Source of the DNA: a virus
Lineage: Duplodnaviria; Heunggongvirae; Uroviricota; Caudoviricetes
Length of the DNA stretch: 64,000 nt
IMG/VR virus record: IMGVR_UViG_2657245091_000008
Direction: 5' to 3' (one strand)
Part shown: positions 12,389-54,890 of the stretch, one piece after another
How positions within the stretch are numbered: the stretch's first letter is position 1
Layout: each line of letters opens with the position of its first letter
Made by a program: the position numbers and the translations under genes
Notes under the pieces: generated by a model
Seen by the model: only the letters and a program-made list of their open reading frames with translations
Database searches by the model: none
What the model was told of the DNA's origin: nothing

Positions 12389-12556
12389 AGTTATTCATCC
12401 TTTAACGTAAAAAAACAAATAATTATAAAGCTGTGTGAGTGCGCTATTTTACTAATCTACACTATGTTATGCAATTTATTGGTATCAGGCCCCGGCTAGG
12501 CCGGGGCAAAAGCTATTAACTAACGATCCAGTCCATAGCAATAACATCCTCTGGAG

Positions 12557-13456
12557 CTAAATCAATAGCATGGATTTTCCCGTCCCGGATGGTGCGCCAG
12601 TGCTTTCGTGATCCACCTTCGGGCCATACCATACACCTTCAGGCCAGGAAGAACGACGACACACTGTTGCGTATCCAGTCCTGATCTTCTCTCTGGCGGT
12701 ATGTAGTGACAGATTATCCTTTGGGCTTTCAGGCACAGGATGGTGGATTGCCTGAAACATCCCCATCTTTGGATGATACCAGCGTTTATTGCGTGGTTCT
12801 GCCTCCGACATCACCTGCTTAAAGGCTTTCCGGAAGGGGGCCAGGGCCACAATGGAGCGTCGCGCAAGCAAACCATCTGGAGTTAAAAACTCATGCGTAT
12901 CGGTGGGAATCCGGTAAGCGTTGACCAGGTTTCGGCATTTGGCTTCAGTCAGGCCGCATTTCGCCGCCAGCTGGCGGTAGCCAATGTAGCCTTCCGGCAT
13001 ATTGCCTTTCTTTATTTGCTCGACGGTTTCAGCGACTTTGGACACTTGTGCCGATACTTCGGCTACCTGGGCATTAACAGCGTTGATCCGGCGTTCATGC
13101 TCAAGATGCATTTGCGCCATTTCAGCCAGGATTTCGGCTTTTGATTTTAACGGTTCCCTGGCATTCTCCAGTTCGCGCCAGCGGTCCACCAGCCGGGCGG
13201 TGAATTCCGGAGAGAGCTGTGCGACGACAATGATACTATCGCGCTTGCCTTGTTCGCCTTCGAAGACGTAAGCCTCGACACTACGGCGTAGTCCTAAGTT
13301 GTTGATTTTTTCGAAAACCTCAATTTGAGGAAACCGGACAACGCCACCTTTGGCTAATGTCTCAATAGTGCGTTTCACATTATCATGACGCTTACCCACC
13401 AGTTCCGCGATCTCAATACTGGTCATTGTCGCTTTGCGAGAGATGGGCAGATTCAT
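12557..13456 (-). CDS. antirepressor-like protein (Rha/Ant family), copy 1, with C-terminal extension
   Basis: Clear paralogue of the protein at 53637-54344 over about 230 aa; here the stop is absent and the frame continues about 70 aa through sequence homologous to the small ORF 53440-53640. Confidence 0.65.
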   Translation of the reverse strand: MNLPISRKATMTSIEIAELVGKRHDNVKRTIETLAKGGVVRFPQIEVFEKINNLGLRRSVEAYVFEGEQGKRDSIIVVAQLSPEFTARLVDRWRELENAREPLKSKAEILAEMAQMHLEHERRINAVNAQVAEVSAQVSKVAETVEQIKKGNMPEGYIGYRQLAAKCGLTEAKCRNLVNAYRIPTDTHEFLTPDGLLARRSIVALAPFRKAFKQVMSEAEPRNKRWYHPKMGMFQAIHHPVPESPKDNLSLHTAREKIRTGYATVCRRSSWPEGVWYGPKVDHESTGAPSGTGKSMLLI

Positions 13457-13671
13457 CAGTGCACCTCCACGCAGTTCATCGGCAGATTCCAGTAATTGAG
13501 GATCTCCATCGCATCAAGAGTGAAGCGAGCAGCAAAAATGCAGGGTTCTTCGGGAAGGTATGAGCGCGCTTCTGCTTCGGTTGTAGCCATGACGCAGATA
13601 TACAGGTGTTTTTGGCAGGAATAGAAACGCCAGATAAATTCAGAATGAGTTGGGGTAGGGATAGTAGCCAT
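13456..13671 (-). CDS. Icd-like small protein, copy 1
   Basis: 71-aa ORF overlapping the ant start; paralogue of 54344-54568 (shared EFIWRF, TEAEARS); position matches P1 icd upstream of ant. Confidence 0.5.
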   Translation of the reverse strand: MATIPTPTHSEFIWRFYSCQKHLYICVMATTEAEARSYLPEEPCIFAARFTLDAMEILNYWNLPMNCVEVH

Positions 13672-13980
13672 ATTGGCAGCCTCCTTTTGCTAAGTTAAGG
13701 AGCTACCGCGTGAGGTTCCAATCTCAATGGCGGTAGCACTGACTGGGTTGGAACTACCGGCGCAAAAGGGAACCGGCCTGCCTTTCGGCAGCCCAGCCAG
13801 CACTACCATTGATCTCTGAGCTAAACGCTACGTATGGCTGTGCGATGGCATGACACAAAAAAAGACGCTTTCGGCGTCTGTGTCGCCTTTTGCATTATCC
13901 GGGGTTCCAATCCCGGCACCCGTTTTTCTAAGGTGCCGTAGAAATATACCCCACGATAATGCCAGGGCGCAACAGTCAGT
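13672..13980 (-). ncRNA. structured untranslated leader, candidate c4-like antisense RNA region (copy 1)
   Basis: No credible ORF; GGTTCCAATC occurs twice (13706-13715, 13903-13912) with a partial complement at 13736-13745; hairpin plus T run on the minus strand around 13856-13880. Confidence 0.3.
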
Positions 13981-30681: not shown

Positions 30682-31338
30682 TTACTCCACTACAAACCAG
30701 TCACATGCCAGTAAATCAGCAACAGACGGCAACCAAACGTTGTCTATATTTTGCGCATCCTTCAATACAAAATGGTCGCCATAAGGAACCTGAATGTCGT
30801 GGAAATTGACGCACCCAGCTAGAACTAACCAGCAGCATTGCTTTTCGCCTTTCCACCCGCGTCGAGATACCTTTCTTCCTTCTTTCAACCACGTCAGCGC
30901 GACAGAAAAGTCGGCTGCTTCAAGGTCGATTTCTTCTTGTTGGGTAGTGATACCACCAGCAGAAATAGTTACGTCCCTGGCTGTAATGAATGTCACCCCA
31001 TTGTGACCTTCAATCCTGAGCGATACCCCATTTTCGAAGATGTCGTTAGTTCGACTAAAGCCATCTTTAAATTTCTTTTCTGATAAACAGGACAGATGAC
31101 CTTCTTCATCAACGACAAGATAGCCGCCAACTTGTGGTAGGTGTTTTTGCAAAAACATTGCATCAACATAGATTCTTACTCCTTTGGGTTCTGTGACCTC
31201 GATTTCACCACAATTAGGCATCACAGGAGTAATACCACCGATGTATTTGATATTCTTGATTTTCGATGCACTAACGTTTTTGTGAGCTTTGTATTTGGGA
31301 AGGAACTTAAAAAGCTCTTTCGTTGCCATGTTATTCAT
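30682..31338 (-). CDS. protein with C-terminal DUF2829 (Tad2-like) domain
   Basis: C-terminal FSVALTWLKEGRKVSRRGWKGEK matches the DUF2829 pattern A..LK.G.KV.R.GW.G. Confidence 0.45.
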   Translation of the reverse strand: MNNMATKELFKFLPKYKAHKNVSASKIKNIKYIGGITPVMPNCGEIEVTEPKGVRIYVDAMFLQKHLPQVGGYLVVDEEGHLSCLSEKKFKDGFSRTNDIFENGVSLRIEGHNGVTFITARDVTISAGGITTQQEEIDLEAADFSVALTWLKEGRKVSRRGWKGEKQCCWLVLAGCVNFHDIQVPYGDHFVLKDAQNIDNVWLPSVADLLACDWFVVE

Positions 31339-31352
31339 AGTCTTTTCTCTGC

Positions 31353-31847
31353 TTATAACTTTTCGTACTGAAGCGGTGAACGCTTAATTTCAAAGTGGCC
31401 TTCCGATGTGCTACCAAAGCCACCAGCACCACGTTCCGTTTCGTTGAGTTCCTCAACCTCGACTAGTGAGACTTGTTCAACACGCTCAAAAATGCCTTGC
31501 ATGACAGCCATTCCAGGCTTGAGACAAACGCCTTCCCCGCCGGGATCAGTAATCAGTTTTGCCATGATTTCACCGCGATAATCGGAGTCGATAATTCCTA
31601 CGCAGTTAGCCAGGCGAGTATGTTTTTTGCAGCCCAATCCGGATCGCGGATAGAGTTTCAGACACCAGCCGGGCGGGATCTCCATAGCCAGTCCGGTATA
31701 CACCCACCAGCTTGAGGAAATTGCACCATTGCTATCGACGCATGGTTTTATTTCAACAGCCTCAAAATCCATCGCCGCCGATCCGGAGGTGGCATAAGCT
31801 GGAAGTTTTGCTGCCGGATGTAGGCGTTTCACTTTTACGTAAATCAT
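31353..31847 (-). CDS. dut: dUTPase
   Basis: dUTPase motifs GIIDSDYRGE (motif III) and RGAGGFGSTSEG (motif V). Confidence 0.7.
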   Translation of the reverse strand: MIYVKVKRLHPAAKLPAYATSGSAAMDFEAVEIKPCVDSNGAISSSWWVYTGLAMEIPPGWCLKLYPRSGLGCKKHTRLANCVGIIDSDYRGEIMAKLITDPGGEGVCLKPGMAVMQGIFERVEQVSLVEVEELNETERGAGGFGSTSEGHFEIKRSPLQYEKL

Positions 31848-40014: not shown

Positions 40015-40090
40015 TGGTGGCCCCTACCGGATTTGAACCGGTGACCGTGCGATTATGAGTCGCCTGCTCTAACCACTGAGCTAAAGGGCC
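40015..40090 (-). tRNA. tRNA-Ile (anticodon CAU, ileX-like) or tRNA-Met
   Basis: Minus-strand GGCCCTTTAGCTCAGTGGTTAGAGCAGGCGACTCATAATCGC...GGTTCAAATCC...GGGGCCACCA; cloverleaf with CAU anticodon and encoded CCA; very close to E. coli ileX as I recall it. Confidence 0.8.
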
Positions 40091-40227
40091 AGATTACTGT
40101 TAATTCCGCTTACGCTTTTTGCCAGAACCGCGTAAGGCTTTTGCCGCTTGCTCGACCCCATATGCAACCACCAGCAAAAATAAAAATGTCCAACCAGGGT
40201 TCTTATCGGCAAACGCCCAAAAATTCA

Positions 40228-40551
40228 TCACTTACAGCCACCTTGCATTTCCTCGGATAATTCATTGATTTTAGTGCTCAATAAGTAATCAAAGTAAAGA
40301 TAAAACACAAAAGTAACGATAGTGCTTAAAGTGTCTGAAATTGCGTATTTCAGCTCAGGAAGCATGACAAAGCAGACAAATAGCGGAAGAAATAACTGCA
40401 CTATGCACAGGCTCTCCTTCCACAACCATCTATATCTGAAGTCTGACAACAAAAACTCCATTGCTTGAAACTTTATTAGATTGCGGTGCCTGGTGCCTCC
40501 AGGTGACGTTAACCAGTTAACAATTAACGCCGGGATGTTTGACTTAACCAC
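40228..40551 (-). CDS. possible small membrane protein between tRNA genes
   Basis: 107-aa AT-rich ORF with hydrophobic stretches; no clear ribosome-binding site. Confidence 0.25.
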   Translation of the reverse strand: MVKSNIPALIVNWLTSPGGTRHRNLIKFQAMEFLLSDFRYRWLWKESLCIVQLFLPLFVCFVMLPELKYAISDTLSTIVTFVFYLYFDYLLSTKINELSEEMQGGCK

Positions 40552-40711
40552 TAAGGAGGATTGTTTTAACTGTTCCGCGTGCGCTTAGCCGCATTCACCG
40601 CAATGGTAAGAGCACTTGGCTGGCTGGGCGGCGATGACGCCTGTACGCATTTGGTGATCCGGTTCTGCTTCCGGCATTCGCTTAATTAGCCAAATACTCT
40701 TAACGTTGCGC

Positions 40712-40798
40712 TGGCGGAGAGTAATGGAATCGAACCATCATCGCTTGCGCAATGGGACGGTTTTCAAGACCGCTTGAGCACCATGCTCCCTACTCTCC
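40712..40798 (-). tRNA. class II tRNA, anticodon UGA (tRNA-Ser-like)
   Basis: 87 nt; acceptor GGAGAGT/ACTCTCC, anticodon loop CUUGAAA, variable arm with GCAA tetraloop, T loop TTCGATT, discriminator G, encoded CCA. Confidence 0.65.
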
Positions 40799-41170
40799 CG
40801 TTATTGTGGCGACCGGTGCTGATCTCCGGCTTGCGGTTATTTCAGACTCTCACGGGCGTTTAATTGCCCCGCCGAACAGCTCTTTTCCGCAATAGCTGCA
40901 ATGTCTTTCGCGCATCAGCCTGCGCATTCACCACAATGTTGAGAACACTGGTTGTCACGCTGCAACGCAACATTTATTCGTAGATTGGGATATGACCCCG
41001 TTACGCCAGTGTTCTCAACGTTGTAGTGCCGGTTACGGTTCCGGCCAGGCCTCTTCCTCAACGGGGTGTTCTCCATACGGACTACCGTTTATTGGTCGTT
41101 CCTGCGGTTTATGTTGTGAAGCCAGATGCTTATCTTCTGGTTGCTTCAAAGAGCTGCACTTCCTCACAAC

Positions 41171-41244
41171 GGTAAGGGTACTTCGTAGGGATTCGAACCC
41201 TCTGCCAAGCTCGGCGATCTCCGACGTCGCAAAATACCCTTACC
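41171..41244 (-). other. tRNA-like fragment / degenerate tRNA
   Basis: Contains a T-arm-like GGGTTCGAATCCC and a 10-bp terminal inverted repeat (GGTAAGGGTA...TACCCTTACC) but no foldable anticodon or D arm. Confidence 0.3.
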
Positions 41245-41252
41245 TGTTGTGC

Positions 41253-41328
41253 TGGTGCCGATTAACGGACTCGAACCGCTGACCATTCGCTTACAAAGCG
41301 ACTGCTCTACCAACTGAGCTAAATCGGC
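41253..41328 (-). tRNA. tRNA-Thr (anticodon UGU)
   Basis: GCCGATTTAGCTCAGTTGGTAGAGCAGTCGCTTTGTAAGCGAATGGTCAGCGGTTCGAGTCCGTTAATCGGCACCA on the minus strand. Confidence 0.85.
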
Positions 41329-41332
41329 AATT

Positions 41333-41419
41333 TGGTGGGGAGTGATGGAGTCGAACCACCCGAGTCGCAATGACAGTAGATTTACAGTCTACCCCGCTAC
41401 CCCTACGGACTAACTCCCC
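41333..41419 (-). tRNA. tRNA-Tyr (anticodon GUA)
   Basis: 87-nt class II tRNA; anticodon arm GTAGACTGTAAATCTAC, T loop GGTTCGACTCC, discriminator A, CCA. Confidence 0.8.
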
Positions 41420-41424
41420 TAAAG

Positions 41425-41501
41425 TGGCGATGGTGGGTGGATTCGAACCACCGACCGACAGCTTAGAAGGCTGCTGCTCTATCCTACTGAGCTACACCAT
41501 C
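41425..41501 (-). tRNA. tRNA-Arg (anticodon UCU, rare AGA/AGG decoder)
   Basis: GATGGTGTAGCTCAGTAGGATAGAGCAGCAGCCTTCTAAGCTGTCGGTCGGTGGTTCGAATCCACCCACCATCGCCA. Confidence 0.8.
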
Positions 41502-45933: not shown

Positions 45934-48900
45934 TTAGGCCGCATCGGCGATTATTTTACGCAGTTCATCTACCGAGTAACGCGTAGATACCATCCATGCA
46001 GGACGGTCAAAGTTCACATCAGCAACCGGGTTTGCTTCAAAATTCCAGAAACGCCCGCCAATCTTCTTAATCGCGTCTTTGGCGTTCCGTATTGTCGAGG
46101 AACCTGGTTGGTCGGCAATGAGATAAACCGCGCCAACGTCCTCGCTGACGCTCCACCAGCGCCCGCGAACACGCGCCTTAGCGCGAATCGGCTTATCATT
46201 AACCACAATGATATAGTCATCATTCGCCGCTTCATCAGCTCTGGCTTCAGCCACTGCCGCCTGCTCTTCTCTTTTGCTTTCAGCCTGCTCAAGCCTTTCC
46301 GCGATCTCTGATTCAGTGGCCCCGCCGTTTTTCAGCGATACATAGTCCTGCCACGTTGCCGATTTGAGCGCATCCGGCAACTCATTCACATAGTCGCCGT
46401 CTTTCAACTCACGGGCGCGACGGGTAGCCATTTCTACCAGGCGATTAACAGAAACAGCATCAGCAAAATCGTCCTTACTAATGTATTTTTCATCAAATGC
46501 ATTGATGACAGCCCCCACCTTAATCCACTGTGCTGCCGGTGATTCCAGGGGGTTATCAGCCTGAACAATGGCTAGTTTTGCTCCATCTACCCCATTATTC
46601 GCCAGCTGTTCCAATGCCGCCCATCCATCTGCATCACTGAGTGATTTATATTGCTCAAACAATGCATCGCGCCAGGCCACCAGCGCAGAACGTGTTTTTT
46701 CGATCTTCGTCTTAATTTTCGCTATCTTGACCTGATTAAACATCCGTTCAATATCATCGATATTGCTAAAGGCTTTCATCCTGCCCTGGAATAAACGGTA
46801 TGCCAGCACGGTCCTCCAGAATGATTCCAGACCTTCTCCGGACGGTTTGCGGAACAAGCTAAGAATATCTTCAGAAGTGACTTTATTAAGCGAACGACCT
46901 GACAGACCACGCCCAGCCATCCAGTTTTCGAACTCCTGGGCAACATCATCCATCGTTGCCTGTGCGCCCCATGCCTGCATTCCCTGGATGTAATCATACC
47001 CATACAATGCCTGGAGGAATCCCTCGCCGTCCACGATATTCAGCGGGTTATCACTGGCTTGTATTTTTGCCACTTCACGCTTCAGCGCCTCGTCGTTGCC
47101 ATCAGGATATATCCATCGCTCAGGTGCTATATCCGATGCTCGCCCGATTTTTTGGCCTATCACGCCATCATAGGTCGATGACAGTGCGATCTGACCATCA
47201 TCTGTGCGATAAGCCCAGTATTTAATAGCTGACCCACCGCCCCATGCATTACCAGGTTTACCAGCAATAACATTCATTACCCCATTACGAATAGCATCAT
47301 AGAACTGATCGCGAGTAAGTATTGTTGATAGCTGGTGGCACTGAACACCACGCGCAGCCGTTGCGCGCGATTCAGCAACCCCCTCTTCAAAAGTTACCGC
47401 TTCAATCACAGAGTCAAACGGCAATGTAACGATTGACCCCGGTGATCGAGCGTAACGACTTGCTCTATCCAGCCAGGCGATACGGCAGATGTATTGTGCT
47501 TTTTCACCGTCAATTTTTTCCACCCGGACAATCGCTGTTGTTTCGCGATCATCAATGACTGCACGGTAATAACTACCTTTATGCAACAGGATATTCTTGT
47601 CAGTGCGCATATATTCCTGTGGGTTCTGAATAACATCGATACTGATATCCAGCACACCAGACTTAATAGCGCGCTCCACATCACCACGAGAGCGTTTCAT
47701 TATGGTATCCGCGTCTTTTGCCCTGGTGATCGCAAACCGCAGCACCCGCGCACGTTTTCTGTAGCTACTCAACTGCTCAAGCGCGTATTTTTGCCCATTC
47801 CTGTTCGTACCCGCTTTTATCAGGTCGTCAAGATTGCGCTGGTAATACTCTATCTGTTCCATCGCGCTTTTCAGTTCTGTCTCCATCATGCCGATATCTT
47901 TTCCGGCGGCGTTTGCCGCTTTCAGGTAGATATCGAGAGCATTGTTGGCCTCGCGCTGTGCTTTCAGTTTCAGACGTTCTTCACGCTCTTGCGCCTGGCG
48001 AGCCATGATTGCGCGGCGTTCTTCCGGGTTTGCCGCCAGCATAATGGCGCGTTCATCAGCATCATCCGCATCACCATTGGCGATCTCTGACATGTCGGAG
48101 GTCATCACCATCTTGATCCAGTCTTTCTTACGTTTCAGCGTATCCAGACGGAAGTCGTCGAATGTGCCTTTGCCACAATAGTAGTGAACATTGACCTTTT
48201 CTTGCGGTGAACCTACGCGCGCACCGCGCCCATTTCGTTGGTCGATACTGGCTGGCGTCCAGGGCAGTGTCAGGTGGTGGATATCGGTTGTCCCGATGTG
48301 CAGGTTAATACCTACTTCAGCCTTCTTGTTACAGATTATGATGCGCGTGCGACCTTCGTTATAGTCGGCGGCAATACCTTCCATGCCCTCAAGGCCAGCA
48401 TCATTTTTAGCGGAGAGATAATCCTCATATTGGGCAAGTTTGCTGTAGTAGGTTTCCCATGCCCCTTCTTTGTATTCACCGTTTTTGTTTGGAGTAGGTT
48501 CGGTCGGCTTATTCACCTTCTTCAGCTTGATGCCGCCAGCCTGGCTAACTGTCGTTGCATTGATAATGCCAATCTCCTGCTCCGGCATTTGCAGTGCACT
48601 GGCGATAATACGGCGCAGCTTCTGGTGCTGGGCTTTTTCATCAATAAAGACGATCTGCTTACCGTTCTTCAGACCTTCACGAAGATTTTCGATCAGCGCG
48701 GCATACTTCGGCGGGATGGGGTGCGATACCTGCTGCATATCAATACCGGCAGCCGCAATGGCCTTAAGTATTTCAGCTTCCAGTTCAATGCTGGCACGTA
48801 TTTCAACATGCGTCGGATGTTCACTAAAAGCGGTCTTCACTACCTTGCTGGTACGCGTACTGACCAGCCCGCCAGCGCCGTCTTCCTCGGCCTCATCAAC

Positions 48901-51900
48901 ATCATCTGCCACTTTACCGCCAGCTACTTTTGGCAAGGCATCAGCAATAGCTTTTACCTGGTCTGCAAGCTCAACGGGGAACTGGAATGTAATCGCACTG
49001 GCATACAGATCCGGGTCTATAGCAACCTTGTCCATGTCACGGATGATGGAGAAGATGAAATCATCCGGTTTGTCGTTAGTGATATGCCCGTTTTCATCGA
49101 CTGTCAGCTCATCATTGCGACTTAACTCCTGAGCACGCTTACGAAGCTCTTCATAAGCAGTCTCCTGCTCCCCTGTCATCGGGATCTGCAAGGTGTTCTC
49201 AATGATGTCGGGAATTTTAACCGTTGCTCCGACATCTGCAGCAGTCTTCAGAGTGGTCCAACGATGGAAAATACCACGCAGGCCGTCAAGGTTCTGGAAG
49301 CCCACCAGCCCCTGCTTCTCTTCCACTTCCCCGGAAATTTTCTGGACCTGAACTGTGGCTGTTTTGCCAAACACACGAACGAAATCATCAGGCGTAATGA
49401 TGCCCATGCGCATCCACTCTTCCTGCGGAATGACAGTAGACAGCATGTTGAAGGCATCAATCGGACTGTTCACCAGCGGAGTTGCCGTCAGCATGACTAC
49501 ACCACGCCCGTTGTTGCGTTTCATCATGTACGCAGCTTTTACAGCCATGTCGCGGGCCATCTTGGATACTGCCGGGTTAGGCAAATATGCCAGTTGTCCC
49601 GCTTCACGCCCGGCATTAAAGGAGTTGCGGTAGTTATGCCCCTCGTCGGCAATCACGCTATCGAAGTTCATATCCTCAAAGTACGGGATATTCTGCTTCT
49701 TCGTTGTACCGGTATTCGCGGCCTGATCCTTAATCTTGTTCTTCTTCTGCGCATCACGGTGTTTACCGGACGCCAGGTCAAGACGCCCCATTTCCACAGC
49801 ATTAAAGACAGCTTGCTGTGAGTTCTCCTCGATGGTTTTTTCTCGTAGCGGGATAGACGCGAATTGTTCTTTTGTCATGATGACCGTTCGCCAATTTGAC
49901 GACGGGATCATGTTCATGCGCTGAACGATAACGGCGCTGGCGGACTCTTTCACAACATTTCTGGTAAGAGGCTGCCCGTTACTGTCGAGGCGTGGTTCGC
50001 CATTTTCATCAAGCACCGGCGCGGTCAGAATATTTCCGCTGTCATCACGAACTTCATCCAAACCGATAAACATCATATTGGCGAAGGCATCAGCACTGTA
50101 GAAACTCTGTGCCTCGTGATACCAGTTCTGATAAACCGCCTTCGGAACAACAATACACGTGCGTTTAGTGCGACCTGTTTCGAAGTTATACGCCTCAAGC
50201 GCAAGCGCGGTCGTGGTTTTACCCAGCCCGGTACCAAATCCCATGATGCCGCGCCCATCTTCTGACAAGCGCCGAACTTCTTCATTCTGATAAGTCAGAG
50301 GAATGCGCTTTCCACTAATCCCTTCCAGGCCAAGCGGTGCGTCAGAATGCGTGAACGGAATGAAACCATTGAATGCGTCGTTATACTCGCGGGCTATCTG
50401 ATCAGCCTGCGGGTGAGTGCGTAACCAGTCGTTAAAGCTAACTTCCAGTTGAGCAATTTTATCCAGGTACTCGTTAGCGTTCTGCCCACGCGGTTTAACA
50501 CCGTTCAGGTAGTTTTCTAACTGGTTCAGGAAGCCGTCTTTATTGTTGGCCTTCTTGAACTCATTCCCGTTTTTGCCGTTTACGGTTCGTAGCTGATAGC
50601 CGGTAAATACACCGTCCTTACCTTCGTAATCGTCCGGAGATACCAGAATGCCATCGACGACCTTCAGATCAGGTTCAGTGTACTTAAACTCGTCATAGCC
50701 CTGCTCTGCCAGGAACTCTTTTATCAAGCGGCGATCCAGCCAGCGGGCATTCAGATTAACGGTGACTTTATTTAGTGGCGTGAAAATACGTTTCTCTTCG
50801 ATTTTCGCCAACTGACGCTCAAAGTTGGCTTTCTGCTCACCTGTTGACGCATCACGCCAGCTCATCAGCAAAGCTGTTTTGGTTGCAATATCGCCGCTGG
50901 TGGCGCGGTCCATCGGCAGCAGGCAGCCATACCCATCAATAGCGATATCATCAAATTTCGCCAGGTATTCAAGGGCCGCGTCGTCGTCCTCTGGCAGTTC
51001 ACCAGCAAACGCCTCACGAAAGTCTCCCAGCGTTATAGGATTAAGGGCTACATCACTGAAAAGATGTGCTATCACTTGTTCAGGACGTGTAAAGTCAATA
51101 CCGGCAGCACCATCCGTTACATCAAGTCGCCCTGCCAGAAGGTCAGAAGTGGAACCATCCTGTTTCACATTGCCAGTGAACGTCATCCAGTTTTTAGCGC
51201 CAGCTTCAGCAAGCCCATTCAGCTTAATGGCGTGCGGTGGCCCATACTTCGCAACTTCTGCTGCCGCCAGGCGGGATGCATCTGCCAGTTTGTCATCAAC
51301 GTTCACACCCAGGTTACGCAAATCAAGTGCCTTGTTGATCAACTGACCTATCAGCGCACCGCGCATAACGCGCTCCCTGTCTTTTTCTCGCTGCTTGCCA
51401 GCAAAGCGAATCATTGCTGCCACTTCATCACTGACAACCGATGGATAGTCGGACGCGATCGCCGATATCTGGTCCCATGACAAAGCCAGAATCCCGTTTG
51501 TTGACTGGAACGCGATCTGCAGATCGCCAAACGTCGAAACACCATATCGACTTACATCAAGCGCGGAGGATTTGGTTGTCGTGTCCTTAACCCATTTCAG
51601 ACCATCAAACTCATGCCAGATACCGCCTACAAGGCGTTTATCGCCCACTTTCGCGCCCTGCCATGCCTGAGTAGTTACGCCGAGCAAATCCCAATTGATG
51701 CGACTATCAAAGCGACGAGATAGCGCGGTTTTCATCGACTCATTGGATACACGACCGTCTTTTTTCACCACCAGGGTATTGCGGAAGCTGGTACGTTCCA
51801 TGTCGCCGTAAACAAATCGCTTCCCTTCGGTTGTAAACCATTTTCCTTTGAGGAAGGTATCCCAAAGGACGTTTGCCGATTTGAGTGTTGAATCATCCGT

Positions 51901-52770
51901 GTCGGGGATCATCTCCAGGAAGGTTTCCGGGTGTTTACGCAATACCCATACGTCCACCACGGTATCTGTACCGGATTCGCTGAACGTACCAGAAGGCATA
52001 CGATGTGCGCCCAAAAATTCCGCTTTACGGCTGACTTTATCGCGCAATTTTTTATATTTCGCACCATCGGTCATGCCATTCGGCACCACCAATACGATAA
52101 GCCCACCAGGCTTAACCTTGTCGATCGTGCGCAGCACAAAGTAATTGCCAACGTTCTTCTCGTTTGCATATGCCGGATCAAGCCCGGCGACACCGGAACG
52201 CCCTTCACCAAACGGTACGTTACCAACAGCGTGATCATACATTGCGTCTTTCGCCGCCAGCGCCTCAAACGCCCCGATATTCACATCGTCTTCCGGGTGC
52301 AAAAGCTGGTTTATTCGACCGGAAATCGGAGACAGTTCGGCGCTGGTCATTATCATGCCCTGCCGTTTTGTCTCCTGGAAAATACCTGTGCCCGCTGATG
52401 GTTCCAGTACGTGCCCGCCATCAATACCGTAGTCAGCAAACAGATCCCATATACCTTCAGCCATAAACTGTGGCGTGTAGTATTCGTATTGGCTGCCCTC
52501 ACCATCTGTCAGGCCGCCTTCACCGGTATACCCGGCAAGAATCTGACGTTGTTCGTCAGTTAATTTCGCCCCATCGAAGCCGGGCGGAAGGGAATTAAGA
52601 AGATTTACTGCGGCATTATTTGCTGCCCGGCGTGTTTTCTGAATACTGACGCCATCGGCTTTCCTGACGCCAAAGGTCGCAACAGCACGTAATTTATGCA
52701 ACCGACTAACAATTTCAATCAGTTCGCCTAAGCTGGAGGCTTCACTGATTGAATGAAGTAGTTTGTCCAA
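45934..52770 (-). CDS. darB: DarB-like antirestriction protein (N6-adenine methyltransferase plus SF2 helicase)
   Basis: 2278-aa single ORF; methyltransferase motif GNVPFGEG near the N-terminus, helicase DEGH box mid-protein; size and architecture match P1 DarB; TTG start with GAGGGGGA Shine-Dalgarno. Confidence 0.75.
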   Translation of the reverse strand: MDKLLHSISEASSLGELIEIVSRLHKLRAVATFGVRKADGVSIQKTRRAANNAAVNLLNSLPPGFDGAKLTDEQRQILAGYTGEGGLTDGEGSQYEYYTPQFMAEGIWDLFADYGIDGGHVLEPSAGTGIFQETKRQGMIMTSAELSPISGRINQLLHPEDDVNIGAFEALAAKDAMYDHAVGNVPFGEGRSGVAGLDPAYANEKNVGNYFVLRTIDKVKPGGLIVLVVPNGMTDGAKYKKLRDKVSRKAEFLGAHRMPSGTFSESGTDTVVDVWVLRKHPETFLEMIPDTDDSTLKSANVLWDTFLKGKWFTTEGKRFVYGDMERTSFRNTLVVKKDGRVSNESMKTALSRRFDSRINWDLLGVTTQAWQGAKVGDKRLVGGIWHEFDGLKWVKDTTTKSSALDVSRYGVSTFGDLQIAFQSTNGILALSWDQISAIASDYPSVVSDEVAAMIRFAGKQREKDRERVMRGALIGQLINKALDLRNLGVNVDDKLADASRLAAAEVAKYGPPHAIKLNGLAEAGAKNWMTFTGNVKQDGSTSDLLAGRLDVTDGAAGIDFTRPEQVIAHLFSDVALNPITLGDFREAFAGELPEDDDAALEYLAKFDDIAIDGYGCLLPMDRATSGDIATKTALLMSWRDASTGEQKANFERQLAKIEEKRIFTPLNKVTVNLNARWLDRRLIKEFLAEQGYDEFKYTEPDLKVVDGILVSPDDYEGKDGVFTGYQLRTVNGKNGNEFKKANNKDGFLNQLENYLNGVKPRGQNANEYLDKIAQLEVSFNDWLRTHPQADQIAREYNDAFNGFIPFTHSDAPLGLEGISGKRIPLTYQNEEVRRLSEDGRGIMGFGTGLGKTTTALALEAYNFETGRTKRTCIVVPKAVYQNWYHEAQSFYSADAFANMMFIGLDEVRDDSGNILTAPVLDENGEPRLDSNGQPLTRNVVKESASAVIVQRMNMIPSSNWRTVIMTKEQFASIPLREKTIEENSQQAVFNAVEMGRLDLASGKHRDAQKKNKIKDQAANTGTTKKQNIPYFEDMNFDSVIADEGHNYRNSFNAGREAGQLAYLPNPAVSKMARDMAVKAAYMMKRNNGRGVVMLTATPLVNSPIDAFNMLSTVIPQEEWMRMGIITPDDFVRVFGKTATVQVQKISGEVEEKQGLVGFQNLDGLRGIFHRWTTLKTAADVGATVKIPDIIENTLQIPMTGEQETAYEELRKRAQELSRNDELTVDENGHITNDKPDDFIFSIIRDMDKVAIDPDLYASAITFQFPVELADQVKAIADALPKVAGGKVADDVDEAEEDGAGGLVSTRTSKVVKTAFSEHPTHVEIRASIELEAEILKAIAAAGIDMQQVSHPIPPKYAALIENLREGLKNGKQIVFIDEKAQHQKLRRIIASALQMPEQEIGIINATTVSQAGGIKLKKVNKPTEPTPNKNGEYKEGAWETYYSKLAQYEDYLSAKNDAGLEGMEGIAADYNEGRTRIIICNKKAEVGINLHIGTTDIHHLTLPWTPASIDQRNGRGARVGSPQEKVNVHYYCGKGTFDDFRLDTLKRKKDWIKMVMTSDMSEIANGDADDADERAIMLAANPEERRAIMARQAQEREERLKLKAQREANNALDIYLKAANAAGKDIGMMETELKSAMEQIEYYQRNLDDLIKAGTNRNGQKYALEQLSSYRKRARVLRFAITRAKDADTIMKRSRGDVERAIKSGVLDISIDVIQNPQEYMRTDKNILLHKGSYYRAVIDDRETTAIVRVEKIDGEKAQYICRIAWLDRASRYARSPGSIVTLPFDSVIEAVTFEEGVAESRATAARGVQCHQLSTILTRDQFYDAIRNGVMNVIAGKPGNAWGGGSAIKYWAYRTDDGQIALSSTYDGVIGQKIGRASDIAPERWIYPDGNDEALKREVAKIQASDNPLNIVDGEGFLQALYGYDYIQGMQAWGAQATMDDVAQEFENWMAGRGLSGRSLNKVTSEDILSLFRKPSGEGLESFWRTVLAYRLFQGRMKAFSNIDDIERMFNQVKIAKIKTKIEKTRSALVAWRDALFEQYKSLSDADGWAALEQLANNGVDGAKLAIVQADNPLESPAAQWIKVGAVINAFDEKYISKDDFADAVSVNRLVEMATRRARELKDGDYVNELPDALKSATWQDYVSLKNGGATESEIAERLEQAESKREEQAAVAEARADEAANDDYIIVVNDKPIRAKARVRGRWWSVSEDVGAVYLIADQPGSSTIRNAKDAIKKIGGRFWNFEANPVADVNFDRPAWMVSTRYSVDELRKIIADAA

Positions 52771-52921: not shown

Positions 52922-53407
52922 ATGGCAAACATTGAACCTCGCTGGCTAATTGAAGCCCGTAAGCACATTGGCCTGACTGAAATAAAAGGCGCTAAACACA
53001 ACCCTGAAATCGTTCAGTTCTGGCGCGACATCAAGCGCGGCGGAATTAAAGACGATGAAACGCCGTGGTGCGCAGCATTTGTCGGTGCAATGCTGGAACG
53101 TGTAGGCATCCGCTCAACAAGATTTGAGTCGGCAAAATCCTATCTGGATTGGGGCGAGAAATTAGATACACCGGCATACGGATGTATCGTTGTATTTACC
53201 CGCGTAGGCGGTGGACACGTAGGCTTCGTTGTCGGACGCCGCGCCAATGGCGATCTGCTTGTCTTGGGTGGGAACCAGGGGGATGCGGTTAATATTCGCG
53301 CATTCCCAACATCAAGAGTGTCTGGCTATCGCTGGCCTGCTGGCGAACCACGCAATACCGCTCTGTTACCAGTCGGAGACGCAGCAACCTCAACTAATGA
53401 GGCATGA
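52922..53407 (+). CDS. putative cell-wall hydrolase (NlpC/P60-CHAP-like, TIGR02594-like)
   Basis: 161 aa; conserved Cys in TPWCAAFVG and His in GGGHVGFVVG. Confidence 0.5.
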   Translation: MANIEPRWLIEARKHIGLTEIKGAKHNPEIVQFWRDIKRGGIKDDETPWCAAFVGAMLERVGIRSTRFESAKSYLDWGEKLDTPAYGCIVVFTRVGGGHVGFVVGRRANGDLLVLGGNQGDAVNIRAFPTSRVSGYRWPAGEPRNTALLPVGDAATSTNEA

Positions 53408-53431
53408 AAAAAGCCCCGGCCAGGCCGGGGC
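53406..53431 (-). terminator. GC hairpin plus U run (minus-strand terminator); also present as a repeat at 12489-12507
   Basis: GCCCCGGCCAGGCCGGGGC preceded on the plus strand by AAAAAA. Confidence 0.5.
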
Positions 53432-53439
53432 ATCACGCT

Positions 53440-53640
53440 TCAAGTCACGATCCAATCATTACCGACTATATCAGCCGTCGATAAATCAACTTCCCGGATC
53501 TGGAGTCCATTAATACAAAACCATCCGGTAGTAGAGTAATTATCAGGCCAGGCCCATACACCAACACTCCATGCTTTACGGCGGCACACTTCAGCCTGTC
53601 CTTCCCTGATTTTTTTTACCGCCTGCATGATGTCCATCAC
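53440..53640 (-). CDS. hypothetical small protein downstream of ant copy 2
   Basis: 66-aa ORF; its homologue in copy 1 is fused in frame to the ant gene. Confidence 0.35.
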   Translation of the reverse strand: MMDIMQAVKKIREGQAEVCRRKAWSVGVWAWPDNYSTTGWFCINGLQIREVDLSTADIVGNDWIVT

Positions 53641-54344
53641 TCACCTCCCCAACCGATCACCTGGAATTGCCCCATTTTGGGGTGATACCAGCGTTTTCCT
53701 CGGTGTTCAGCCTCCGACATCATCCGGTTAAAAGCATTCATGAAGGGATATAAGGCCACGATGGAACGACGCGACAATACCCCCTCTGGAGTTAAAAACT
53801 CATGCGTATCGGTGGGAATCCGGTAAGCGTTGACAAGGTTGCGGCATTTGGCTTCAGTCAGGCCACATTTCGCCGCCAGCTGGCGGTAGCCAATGTAGCC
53901 TTCCGGAATATTGCCTTTCTTTATTTGCTCGACGGTTTCAGCGACCTGGCTAACCTTTGACTCAACAGCATGAATCCGCTTTTGCTGCTGAACTGCATTC
54001 GCAGCCATTGCAGCGATCATCTCTATTTCGGTCAACGGCTGGCGTACTTGTTCTTCCAGTTCGCGCCAGCGGTCCACCAGCCGGGCGGTGAATTCGGGAG
54101 AGAGCTGCGCGACGACAATGATGCTGTCTCGTTTGCCTTGCTCGCCTTCGAAGACGTAAGCCTCAACGCCACGACGCAATCCTAAGTTATTGATTTTTTC
54201 GAAAACAGCCATTGGCGGTTTTCGGATAATGCTTCGAGCAACCATACGCTCAATACTACGTTTAACGTCAGAGTGTTGGCTTCCCACCAGCTCCGCAATC
54301 TCAATGCTGGTCATTGATAGTTTTTCGAGAATGCAGATACCCAT
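53637..54344 (-). CDS. antirepressor-like protein (Rha/Ant family), copy 2
   Basis: 235 aa; paralogue of 12557-13456; coupled to the upstream Icd-like ORF. Confidence 0.65.
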   Translation of the reverse strand: MGICILEKLSMTSIEIAELVGSQHSDVKRSIERMVARSIIRKPPMAVFEKINNLGLRRGVEAYVFEGEQGKRDSIIVVAQLSPEFTARLVDRWRELEEQVRQPLTEIEMIAAMAANAVQQQKRIHAVESKVSQVAETVEQIKKGNIPEGYIGYRQLAAKCGLTEAKCRNLVNAYRIPTDTHEFLTPEGVLSRRSIVALYPFMNAFNRMMSEAEHRGKRWYHPKMGQFQVIGWGGE

Positions 54345-54568
54345 CAGTGAGCCTCCGCAATGCCGGGATTGGTAATATTGCGATACCAGGGATTAGTGTT
54401 TGGTTGTGGGGAAGTAGAGAAACGACCAGTAAGAACACCATGCTGATCAGGGATCAGAGAACGGGCTTCTTTTTCGGTTGCGGCAATTGCGAAGTGATCG
54501 CAGCGTTTTTGCAGGGAGTGGAAACGCCAGATGAATTCTGGACGTGAACAAGGATTGGCATTAACCAT
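54344..54568 (-). CDS. Icd-like small protein, copy 2
   Basis: 74 aa; paralogue of 13456-13671. Confidence 0.5.
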   Translation of the reverse strand: MVNANPCSRPEFIWRFHSLQKRCDHFAIAATEKEARSLIPDQHGVLTGRFSTSPQPNTNPWYRNITNPGIAEAH

Positions 54569-54890
54569 AGTTACGGCCTCACTAACAGGTTTAACAACCT
54601 GCCACCCGCTGTCAAACAGGTGGCAGGACGTGACAGGGTTGACAGACTGGCGTTAGTGAAACCAGCAGGCCGAAGCCTCCCCATCACGCCCCACCATAAT
54701 TCGGGCGTAACGCGGTTTACGGACACAAAAATACCGCAATATCGGAAATCTGCGGTTGTCCGCACTAACATTCAGGCTGTCAAACCCGGTCGCAGAATTT
54801 GCTACGACGGCATGAATATAAGCCTGAAAACATGGAAGATCAACTAAAAATTTCAGCAATGGATGACTTCAGTCGATGATGCAGATCATA
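54569..54890 (-). ncRNA. structured untranslated leader, candidate c4-like antisense RNA region (copy 2)
   Basis: CTGTCAAAC occurs twice (54609-54617, 54777-54785) with its complement GTTGACAG at 54638-54645; 9-bp stem hairpin CCTGCCACC...GGTGGCAGG. Confidence 0.3.

What the first reader, a model, noticed from the sequence alone, without database searches (positions are those of the whole stretch)
12557..13456. Ant copy 1 is a stop-loss fusion with the small downstream gene present separately in copy 2
Copy 2 ends ...RWYHPKMGQFQVIGWGGE-stop and is followed by a 66-aa ORF (53440-53640, MMDIMQAVKKIREGQAEVCRRKAWSVGVWAWPDN...). Copy 1 reads ...RWYHPKMGMFQAIHHPVPESPKDNLSLHTAREKIRTGYATVCRRSSWPEGVWYGP..., continuing in frame through a homologue of that small ORF. 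This is either a natural fusion, a decaying paralogue, or a sequencing frameshift.
Basis: seen in the sequence. Interest (0 to 1): 0.45.

Follow-up and report, generated by a model that had tools for sequence, protein, structure and literature searches.

The report
Frameshifted antirepressor fused to Tad2-like domain
The "fusion" is the normal, conserved form of this antirepressor gene in D6-like phage-plasmids (antirepressor plus a small domain resembling phage Tad2 immune-signal sponges), and what is special about this plasmid is only a genuine one-base deletion that cuts that domain in half.

Summary
The window is contig JXVZ01000026.1, a D6-like phage-plasmid of E. coli. The quoted sequences are correct, but the reading is incomplete.

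1. **The fusion is not local.** Phage D6 (orf82) and hundreds of E. coli and Salmonella contigs carry a 313-aa orthologue: a Rha/Roi-type Ant plus an in-frame 66-aa C-terminal domain. That domain matches the whole copy-2 small ORF (42% identity, no gaps) and is under purifying selection (pN/pS 0.12).

2. **The window allele has a one-base deletion.** GGG became GG at 12629-12630. Only the first 29 domain residues stay in frame, and 20 junk residues follow. The other 36 residues are intact in the -1 frame (12519-12626, stop at 12516-12518). A second assembly (CP031917) shares the deletion, so it is most likely real.

4. **The family is tied to C4-antisense-RNA (immI-type) operons.** It occurs alone, as a separate gene after ant, or fused to Rha- or ORF6N-type Ant.

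The allele itself is ordinary. The domain identity is a modestly novel lead.

The parts
12557..13456 (-). Copy-1 ant ORF as it stands (299 aa). It has a Rha/Roi-type Ant body (residues 1-~247, Phage_pRha domain at 11-98), a linker, the first 29 residues of the Tad2-like domain, and a 20-aa out-of-frame tail.
   Evidence: PF09669, 35.9 bits against a cut-off of 29.9; identical to P0112
12629..12715 (-). N-terminal part of the fused Tad2-like domain, still in frame with ant (NLSLHTAREKIRTGYATVCRRSSWPEGVW).
12629..12630 (-). Site of the one-base deletion. The GG here is GGG in D6, pF719-4, pIDPH8234-1 and window copy 2.
   Evidence: Inserting one G restores a 313-aa ORF.
12516..12626 (-). Remaining 36 codons of the Tad2-like domain plus the TAA stop. 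They are intact but lie in the -1 frame relative to ant.
12489..12507 (-). GC-rich hairpin GCCCCGGCCTAGCCGGGGC after the original stop. It is homologous to the copy-2 terminator stem but has no T-run here.
   Evidence: The terminator scan did not call it.
13456..13671 (-). icd-like ORF (71 aa). Its stop overlaps the ant start.
   Evidence: phrog_1426
13726..13813 (-). C4 antisense RNA of immI-type operon 1.
   Evidence: RF01695, 76.7 bits
53637..54344 (-). Copy-2 ant (235 aa). It is a complete Roi-type protein that ends like phiP27 L14.
53440..53637 (-). Free-standing Tad2-like small gene (65 aa from the ATG; phrog_7385). Its ATG overlaps the ant TGA by one base and follows a GGAGG.
53413..53431 (-). 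Intrinsic terminator after the small gene.
54344..54568 (-). icd-like ORF of operon 2.
54616..54701 (-). C4 antisense RNA of immI-type operon 2. Its a1/b1 target lies at 54769-54821.

Best explanation
**Shown.**
- Copy 1 is the D6-lineage immI-1 antirepressor. It is a conserved natural fusion of a Rha/Roi-type Ant body to a ~66-aa C-terminal domain.
- The same plasmid also encodes that domain as a separate, translationally coupled gene after the second Ant (copy 2).
- Both copies lie in P1-style operons ordered C4 antisense RNA, icd, ant.
- In this plasmid lineage a single G was lost from a GGG run inside the fused domain. The protein keeps an intact Ant body but only helix alpha1 and strand beta1 of the domain, followed by 20 junk residues. 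The rest of the domain is still readable in the -1 frame, so the lesion is recent.

**Inferred direction of change.** The fused form is derived. Roi homologues in lambdoid phages end where copy 2 ends, and distant relatives of the domain are free-standing.

**Inferred mechanism.**
- The domain has a Tad2/DUF2829-like fold: alpha1, then beta1-beta5 with a short helix.
- Because C4 RNA silences these operons in the lysogen, the domain would be made immediately on infection or derepression.
- This timing fits an early counter-defence sponge for a nucleotide immune signal. I put that function at about 0.35-0.4.
- If so, the frameshift abolishes that function for copy 1. The copy-2 gene and a canonical DUF2829 protein at 30682-31338 remain intact.
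For: **Fusion is conserved.**
- D6 orf82 and pF719-4 encode 313 aa with the full domain.
- About 100 of the top 120 clusters are 313 aa, some seen on 336 or 467 contigs.
- pN/pS in the domain is 0.12 between D6 and pF719-4.

**Deletion.** It is visible in alignments with D6, pF719-4, pIDPH8234-1 and copy 2.
- All 39 other listed E. coli records (of 64 matching genomes) span at least one more base than the matched stretch of the query.
- The 299-aa product occurs on one contig among 15 billion proteins.

**The deletion is real.**
- The window is identical to JXVZ01000026.1.
- CP031917 shares the deletion, although it carries four homopolymer deletions of its own within 5 kb that the window lacks.

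**Operon context.**

**Tad2-like identity.**
- PF11195 is the top or only Pfam hit, with full-length alignments: E 0.034 for the small ORF, 0.012 for P0001, and 6.2e-5 (23.9 bits, cut-off 25) for the relative P0124.
- An AlphaFold2 model reached pLDDT 79.4.
- Seven of the top 8 Foldseek hits are SPO1 Tad2, with probability 0.92-0.99.
- DGKIHAIDLAPEDVVATDW against SPO1 DNKIHAWVPSQTDVLAEDW gives 10/19 identities, z 6.3.
- The predicted topology matches the published Tad2 description.

**Link to C4.** Free-standing relatives sit directly after C4 RNA in two other phage-plasmids. An ORF6N-type Ant carries the same domain in a third C4 locus of pF719-4.
Against: - No window sequence reaches Pfam's gathering score.
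- hhalign against the window's own canonical DUF2829 domain aligns only 13 residues (probability 5%).
- Profile searches of PDB sequences do not retrieve Tad2.
- Foldseek E-values are only 0.035-0.19, and the query is a predicted model.
- Of the SPO1 ligand-contact residues, W25, D67, H71 and D79 have counterparts in the fused type. N26, W73, S76 and T78 do not.
- The strain behind JXVZ01 is unknown. It may be the same isolate as FWSEC0003, and the two assemblies could share Illumina reads.
- No expression or binding data exist.
Confidence: 0.8

Rival explanations
1. The frameshift is a sequencing or assembly error, and the real plasmid encodes the intact 313-aa fusion.
For: The lesion is the loss of one base from a short G run. 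The related complete assembly CP031917 (MinION plus Illumina) shows four homopolymer deletions within 5 kb.
Against: Both assemblies share the same deletion. The window is correct at A7, T5, A5 and G4 runs where CP031917 is short, which gives intact Ref and simB-like ORFs. An error at a G3 run in such an assembly is unlikely, and a coincident error in both is more so.
Confidence: 0.07
2. This is a recent stop-loss fusion specific to this plasmid.
For: Copy 2 in the same window has the two genes separate.
Against: The fused 313-aa form is present in phage D6, pF719-4 and hundreds of contigs. The junction is a different ~40-nt segment, not a mutated stop. In copy 2 the small gene is in another frame.
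Confidence: 0.02
3. The fused form is ancestral, and copy 2 is a fission product.
For: Fission by frameshift is seen in pIDPH8234-1, which has 212-aa and 99-aa ORFs. C-terminal-only ORFs occur in the database (P0128-P0133). The two loci share their 3' hairpin.
Against: phiP27 L14, a Roi-type protein from a lambdoid phage, ends ...FQVIGWQK*, exactly like copy 2. The most distant relatives of the domain (P0124, P0125) are free-standing and have no ant beside them. Copy 2 has a proper Shine-Dalgarno sequence and an overlapping stop and start.
Confidence: 0.2
4. The C-terminal domain or small protein is not an immune-signal sponge. It is part of the switch itself, for example an oligomerisation or C1-repressor-binding module, or the actual antirepressor.
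For: The domain is always found in C4-controlled operons. In two phage-plasmids it is the first gene after C4, and no ant is adjacent. It is fused to two different Ant N-terminal types. Half of the Tad2 pocket residues are missing. The plasmid already has a canonical DUF2829 protein.
Against: No known antirepressor has this fold. Tad2-family proteins tested so far are ligand sponges with varied specificity. Copy 2's Ant is complete without the domain.
Confidence: 0.4
5. Programmed -1 ribosomal frameshifting restores the full domain in this allele.
For: The downstream frame is still open to the original stop.
Against: There is no slippery heptamer at GTATGGTATGG. The arrangement is unique to this lineage, and all relatives read straight through.
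Confidence: 0.01

Closest known systems
Phage D6 orf82 'anti-repressor Ant' (YP_009914759.1), together with orf18 and orf17
   Same: It is orthologous to the window locus. The gene order C4, icd, ant is the same, as are the 313-aa fused architecture at locus 1 and the split 235-aa plus 65-aa arrangement at locus 2.
   Different: The window allele lacks one G and is truncated to 299 aa. The window also lacks the pmgF-like gene that follows ant in D6.
Phage P1 immI operon (c4 antisense RNA, icd, ant1/ant2)
   Same: Both have a C4 RNA with a1/b1 targets and an icd-like ORF whose stop overlaps the antirepressor start. This implies the operon is silent in the lysogen and active on infection (the P1 mechanism is from established knowledge).
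   Different: The Ant here is Rha/Roi-type (PF09669) and was not compared with P1 Ant1/2. The element has two such operons, or three in pF719-4. It also carries an extra Tad2-like module that P1 immI is not known to have.
Tad2 / DUF2829 (PF11195) phage sponges: SPO1 Tad2, ModTad2, HgmTad2 (AcrIIA7)
   Same: The size and predicted topology agree (alpha1, then beta1-beta5 with a short helix). Tad2 proteins are the best fold matches by two methods. The C-terminal D-x-K-I-H-A...D-V-x-A-x-D-W motif is shared, and counterparts of W25, D67, H71 and D79 are present.
   Different: The match is below Pfam's threshold. N26 and W73 are missing. There is a two-residue insertion before the conserved Trp, and a CRR motif is invariant in this family. 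The domain is fused to a DNA-binding antirepressor and placed under antisense-RNA control. No ligand is known.
Roi / Rha-family proteins of lambdoid phages (phiP27 L14, HK97 Roi)
   Same: The Ant body is homologous over its whole length, and the C-terminus is identical in style to copy 2.
   Different: The DNA match to these phages covers only the ant body, so no homologue of the small gene is seen there, and phiP27 L14 carries no fused domain.

Membership tests
P1-type immI operon | C4 antisense RNA upstream of the operon | tested here: met
   RF01695 scores 76.7 bits (13726-13813) and 68.8 bits (54616-54701), against a gathering score of 45.
P1-type immI operon | a1/b1 target sites upstream of c4 | tested here: inconclusive
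   RF03163 is met for copy 2 (54769-54821, 55.2 bits). At copy 1 the equivalent position matches isrK (RF01394, 62.5 bits) instead.
P1-type immI operon | icd-like ORF translationally coupled to ant | tested here: met
   Both icd-like ORFs belong to phrog_1426 and share one base with the ant start (13456 and 54344). Actual coupling was not tested.
P1-type immI operon | Ant inactivates the C1 repressor | not testable with these tools
   This needs genetics or biochemistry. The name 'Ant' here rests on position and on Rha/Roi homology.
Rha family (PF09669 Phage_pRha) | N-terminal Rha domain above the Pfam gathering score | tested here: met
   Copy 1 scores 35.9 bits and copy 2 scores 30.5 bits, against a cut-off of 29.9.
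Tad2 / DUF2829 (PF11195) | Pfam model match at or above the gathering score (25 bits) | tested here: not met
   Scores are 15.1 bits for the small ORF, 12.4 for the D6 C-domain, 16.5 for P0001 and 23.9 for the relative P0124. PF11195 is nevertheless the best or only hit, with full-length alignments.
Tad2 / DUF2829 (PF11195) | Fold: N-terminal helix plus a five-stranded antiparallel sheet with a short helix before the last strand | tested here: met
Tad2 / DUF2829 (PF11195) | Ligand-pocket residues of SPO1 Tad2 (W25, N26, W73, D79, plus D67, H71, S76, T78) | tested here: inconclusive
   Counterparts of W25, D67, H71 and D79 are present in the fused type. N26, W73, S76 and T78 are replaced. The copy-2 protein keeps W25, S76 and D79 only.
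Tad2 / DUF2829 (PF11195) | Homotetramer that sequesters gcADPR or another immune signal and inhibits Thoeris, Pycsar or CBASS | not testable with these tools
   This needs SEC-MALS, binding assays and plaque assays.

The most novel reading that the evidence does not exclude
D6-like phage-plasmids may place a divergent Tad2-like immune-signal sponge (phrog_7385) under C4 antisense-RNA control. It occurs alone, as a coupled gene, or fused to the antirepressor. The same RNA switch that decides lysis or lysogeny would then release a counter-defence protein in the first minutes of infection. A more radical alternative is that this Tad2-fold module is itself the repressor-inactivating part of the switch.
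Probability: 0.3. Interest if true: 0.7.

Novelty: new variant of a known kind. Interest (0 to 1): 0.4.

Why it matters
**For the window.** The question is settled. The gene is a truncated allele of a known, conserved fused gene. It is neither a new fusion nor an assembly error.

**Beyond the window.**
- A 65-aa protein family of unknown function (phrog_7385), and the unannotated C-terminus of the D6-type Ant, get a testable identity as a Tad2-like fold.
- The family has a regulatory context, the C4-controlled immI operons, and occurs in three gene architectures.
- If the family proves to be a sponge, it would be a sponge domain fused to a transcription-factor-like antirepressor and governed by an antisense RNA. 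The papers searched here describe no such link.
- The result also warns that PGAP marks even the intact fused gene as 'incomplete', so pseudogene flags at this locus are unreliable.

Tried and rejected
- **Word-indexed homologue search with the small ORF.** It found only 3 close hits.
- **Full HMMER scan of 1.84 billion representatives with a two-subfamily profile.** It found only 6 hits, so the family is narrow.
- **Sequence searches of the PDB.** Searches with the small ORF, with profile A5 and with P0124 did not retrieve Tad2.
- **hhalign of the family profile against the window's own canonical DUF2829 domain.** It aligned only the last 13 residues.
- **First AlphaFold2 model (4 sequences, pLDDT 70.5).** It gave Tad2 as the top hit but at E 0.3. 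It was replaced by a 10-sequence model.
- **NCBIfam.** It has no model for the small protein.
- **PGAP 'pseudogene' flag in CP031917.** I first took it as support for the frameshift. I rejected that because PGAP gives the same 'missing C-terminus' flag to the intact 313-aa ORF of pF719-4.
- **5-bp or 20-bp duplication as the cause of the frameshift.** I rejected this once the nearest relative showed GTATGGGTATGG.
- **Strain behind JXVZ01.** It could not be identified.
- **Gilcrease and Casjens D6 genome paper.** It was not in the searchable library.

Full report
**Identity of the window.** The 299-aa product of 12557..13456(-) is found on exactly one contig, JXVZ01000026.1 (GCA_000948555.1, 64,839 bp), at the same coordinates. 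A 6.9-kb stretch of that contig is 100% identical to the window. The region is 89% identical to phage D6 and 100% (rounded) identical to plasmid NZ_CP031917.1 of E. coli O45:H2 FWSEC0003. The element is a D6-like phage-plasmid.

**The observation.**
- Copy 2 is a 235-aa Rha/Roi-type protein at 53637..54344(-). A small ORF follows it.
- The small ORF's ATG (53637) overlaps the ant TGA by one base and sits six bases after a GGAGG. It is 65 aa, as in D6 orf17 and cluster P0001.
- Copy 1 does read in frame from the Ant body into a homologue of that ORF.

Aligning the window with D6, pF719-4 and pIDPH8234-1, and also with copy 2, shows a single missing base. The others have GTATGGG(T/C)..., while the window has GTATGG-T....
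- The GG lies at 12629-12630.
- Upstream of it, 29 residues of the domain are in frame.
- Downstream, the 299-aa ORF reads 20 junk residues to a TAG.
- The true continuation (WPEGGSRKHWRTIRDGKIHAIDLAPEDVIAMDWIVS*) is intact in the -1 frame at 12519-12626.
- Inserting one G restores a 313-aa ORF.
- The repaired domain aligns with the small ORF over all 65 residues without gaps (42% identity, E 1e-19).

**The fusion is the norm.**
- D6 orf82 and the pF719-4 orthologue are 313 aa with the complete domain.
- A search of 5.8 billion protein clusters returned 5,541 relatives. Most of the best 120 are 313 aa, and some were seen on 336 or 467 contigs of E. coli and Salmonella.
- Between D6 and pF719-4 the domain has 18 synonymous and 7 non-synonymous differences (pN/pS 0.12). 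This is as constrained as the Ant body, at 0.14.
- The junction is not a mutated stop. After ...FQ(A/V)I, copy 1 has the linker HHPVPESPKDN. Copy 2 has GWGGE*, the same ending as the Roi-type protein L14 of phage phiP27 (...FQVIGWQK*).
- Roi proteins and the most distant relatives of the domain both exist independently. I therefore infer that the fused form is derived. It is old enough to be shared by the D6 lineage.

**Is the deletion real?**
- All 39 other listed E. coli records (of 64 matching genomes) span at least one base more than the matched stretch of the query.
- CP031917 shares the deletion.
- Over 5 kb, CP031917 differs from the window only by one substitution and four homopolymer deletions of its own (A7 to A6, T5 to T4, A5 to A4, G4 to G3). 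These break Ref and a simB-like gene, which are intact in the window.
- CP031917 came from MinION plus Illumina data.
- The window assembly is therefore the more accurate of the two, and the two assemblies agree on GG. I put an artefact at about 7%.
- PGAP's pseudogene flag is not evidence. It gives the intact pF719-4 ORF the same 'missing C-terminus' label.
- Other lesions occur in this gene elsewhere:
  - a +C frameshift in the Ant body of pIDPH8234-1, the nearest relative, which leaves 212-aa and 99-aa ORFs;
  - a different frameshift in a Salmonella Montevideo protein (P0113);
  - an in-frame 7-aa deletion (P0067).

**Context.** Both copies sit in P1-style immI operons. A C4 antisense RNA comes first (76.7 and 68.8 bits), then an icd-like ORF whose stop overlaps the ant start, then ant. 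The literature already notes two immI-like regions in D6-like plasmids (PMC6799933). pF719-4 has a third such locus. Its Ant has an ORF6N N-terminal domain instead of Rha but carries the same C-terminal domain.

**What the small domain is.** PHROGs files it as phrog_7385, of unknown function. Several independent but individually weak lines point to the Tad2/DUF2829 fold.
- PF11195 is the best or only Pfam hit, with full-length alignments. E is 0.034 for the small ORF, 0.012 for P0001 and 0.25 for the D6 domain.
- A relative found by an exhaustive profile scan (P0124, E 3e-10 to the family profile) reaches 23.9 bits against a cut-off of 25.
- An AlphaFold2 model from a 10-sequence alignment (pLDDT 79.4) has a helix, four strands, a short helix and a last strand. 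This is the topology published for SPO1 Tad2.
- Foldseek puts SPO1 Tad2 chains at seven of the first eight ranks (probability 0.92-0.99, E 0.035-0.19).
- The last 19 residues of the fused domain match SPO1 Tad2 at 10 positions (z 6.3, 0 of 500 shuffles).

The evidence against is also real.
- Sequence-only searches of the PDB fail.
- hhalign to the window's own canonical DUF2829 protein aligns only 13 residues.
- Only about half of the SPO1 ligand-contact residues have counterparts: W25, D67, H71 and D79 do, while N26, W73, S76 and T78 do not.

I therefore call it a Tad2-like fold (about 0.75), but not a demonstrated member of the family.

**A recurring association.** The two most distant relatives are P0124, from a Raoultella plasmid, and P0125. 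Both are free-standing genes placed 45-55 bases after a C4 RNA with a1/b1 sites, and no ant gene is adjacent. The family therefore occurs in C4-controlled operons in three architectures: alone, coupled after ant, and fused to ant.

**Mechanism (inferred).** In P1, C4 RNA blocks expression of icd and ant in the lysogen (established knowledge). Genes in these operons should therefore be made only on infection or derepression. Tad2-family sponges must be present early to soak up immune signals (discussion of the Tad2 paper), so this placement would suit a sponge. Equally, the module could be part of the switch itself. Nothing here decides between these two readings.

**Consequence for this plasmid.** Copy 1 keeps its Ant body but loses strands beta2-beta5 and helix alpha3 of the domain, including all C-terminal pocket residues. 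Copy 2's separate gene is intact, and so is a canonical DUF2829 protein at 30682-31338 (62.3 bits).

**Verdict.** The 'stop-loss' reading is wrong, 'natural fusion' is right, and the frameshift is real but lies elsewhere. The allele is ordinary. The domain assignment and its link to C4 are a modestly novel, testable lead. The papers searched here describe no such link.

Noticed in passing
window 30682-31338 (-): A 218-aa protein next to dut (31353-31847) has a canonical Tad2-like/DUF2829 C-terminal domain (PF11195, 62.3 bits, residues 143-217). With it, the plasmid carries three Tad2-like modules, one of them broken.
   Followed up: partly
L008 3752-4291; L009 3746-4207: Distant free-standing relatives of the small ORF (P0124, P0125) lie directly downstream of a C4 antisense RNA with a1/b1 targets, in other D6-like phage-plasmids (Raoultella and a Logan assembly). 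They have no icd or ant. They sit between the PAAR cluster and the capsid gene, the same slot that holds a third c4-icd-ant locus in pF719-4.
   Followed up: partly
L012 (NZ_OY754396.1) 48006-49473: pF719-4 has a third C4-icd-ant operon. Its 332-aa Ant has an ORF6N N-terminal domain (46.4 bits) but the same middle region and Tad2-like C-terminus as the Rha-type fusion. This indicates a swap of the DNA-binding module.
   Followed up: partly
window 11377, 13923, 14406, 14750 (compared with NZ_CP031917.1): The complete FWSEC0003 plasmid assembly is one base short at four homopolymers (A7, T5, A5, G4) relative to the window. This produces a 'frameshifted' Ref nuclease and a split simB-like gene in RefSeq. 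These look like residual long-read errors.
   Followed up: yes
L012 27917-28627 (NZ_OY754396.1); L004 1456-2076 (NZ_CP031917.1 85955-86575): PGAP annotates this gene as 'Rha family transcriptional regulator, incomplete, missing C-terminus' even where the 313-aa ORF is intact. The fused C-terminal domain appears to be outside its evidence model.
   Followed up: partly
window 13690-13809 (-): The 39-aa 'ash family protein' CDS (PF10554), annotated in RefSeq and called on the contig, overlaps the C4 RNA gene (13726-13813) almost entirely. One of the two annotations is probably spurious.
   Followed up: no
window 13858-13936 (-): Upstream of C4 in operon 1, the sequence matches the Rfam family isrK (62.5 bits) rather than c4-a1b1. 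The latter is what matches at the equivalent place in operon 2 (54769-54821).
   Followed up: no
L011 (NZ_CP077453.1) 1201-2143; proteins P0067, P0113: Other independent lesions occur in the same gene. There is a +C frameshift in a C run of the Ant body (giving 212-aa and 99-aa ORFs), a different frameshift in a Salmonella Montevideo allele, and a 7-aa in-frame deletion (VWVWPEG). The deleted 7 aa correspond to the stretch between the direct repeats CCTGAAGGTG and CCCGAAGGTG seen in the related DNA.
   Followed up: partly
window 12389-12556: The window lacks the ~350-bp pmgF-like gene that lies between ant and the 116-aa membrane-protein gene in phage D6 (orf81) and pIDPH8234-1.
   Followed up: no
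window 45934-52770 (-), 52922-53407 (+), 40018-41501 (-): Three other features lie elsewhere in the window: a DarB-like 2278-aa methylase/helicase, a CHAP-domain (TIGR02594-type) peptidoglycan hydrolase next to operon 2, and a cluster of four tRNA genes.
   Followed up: no
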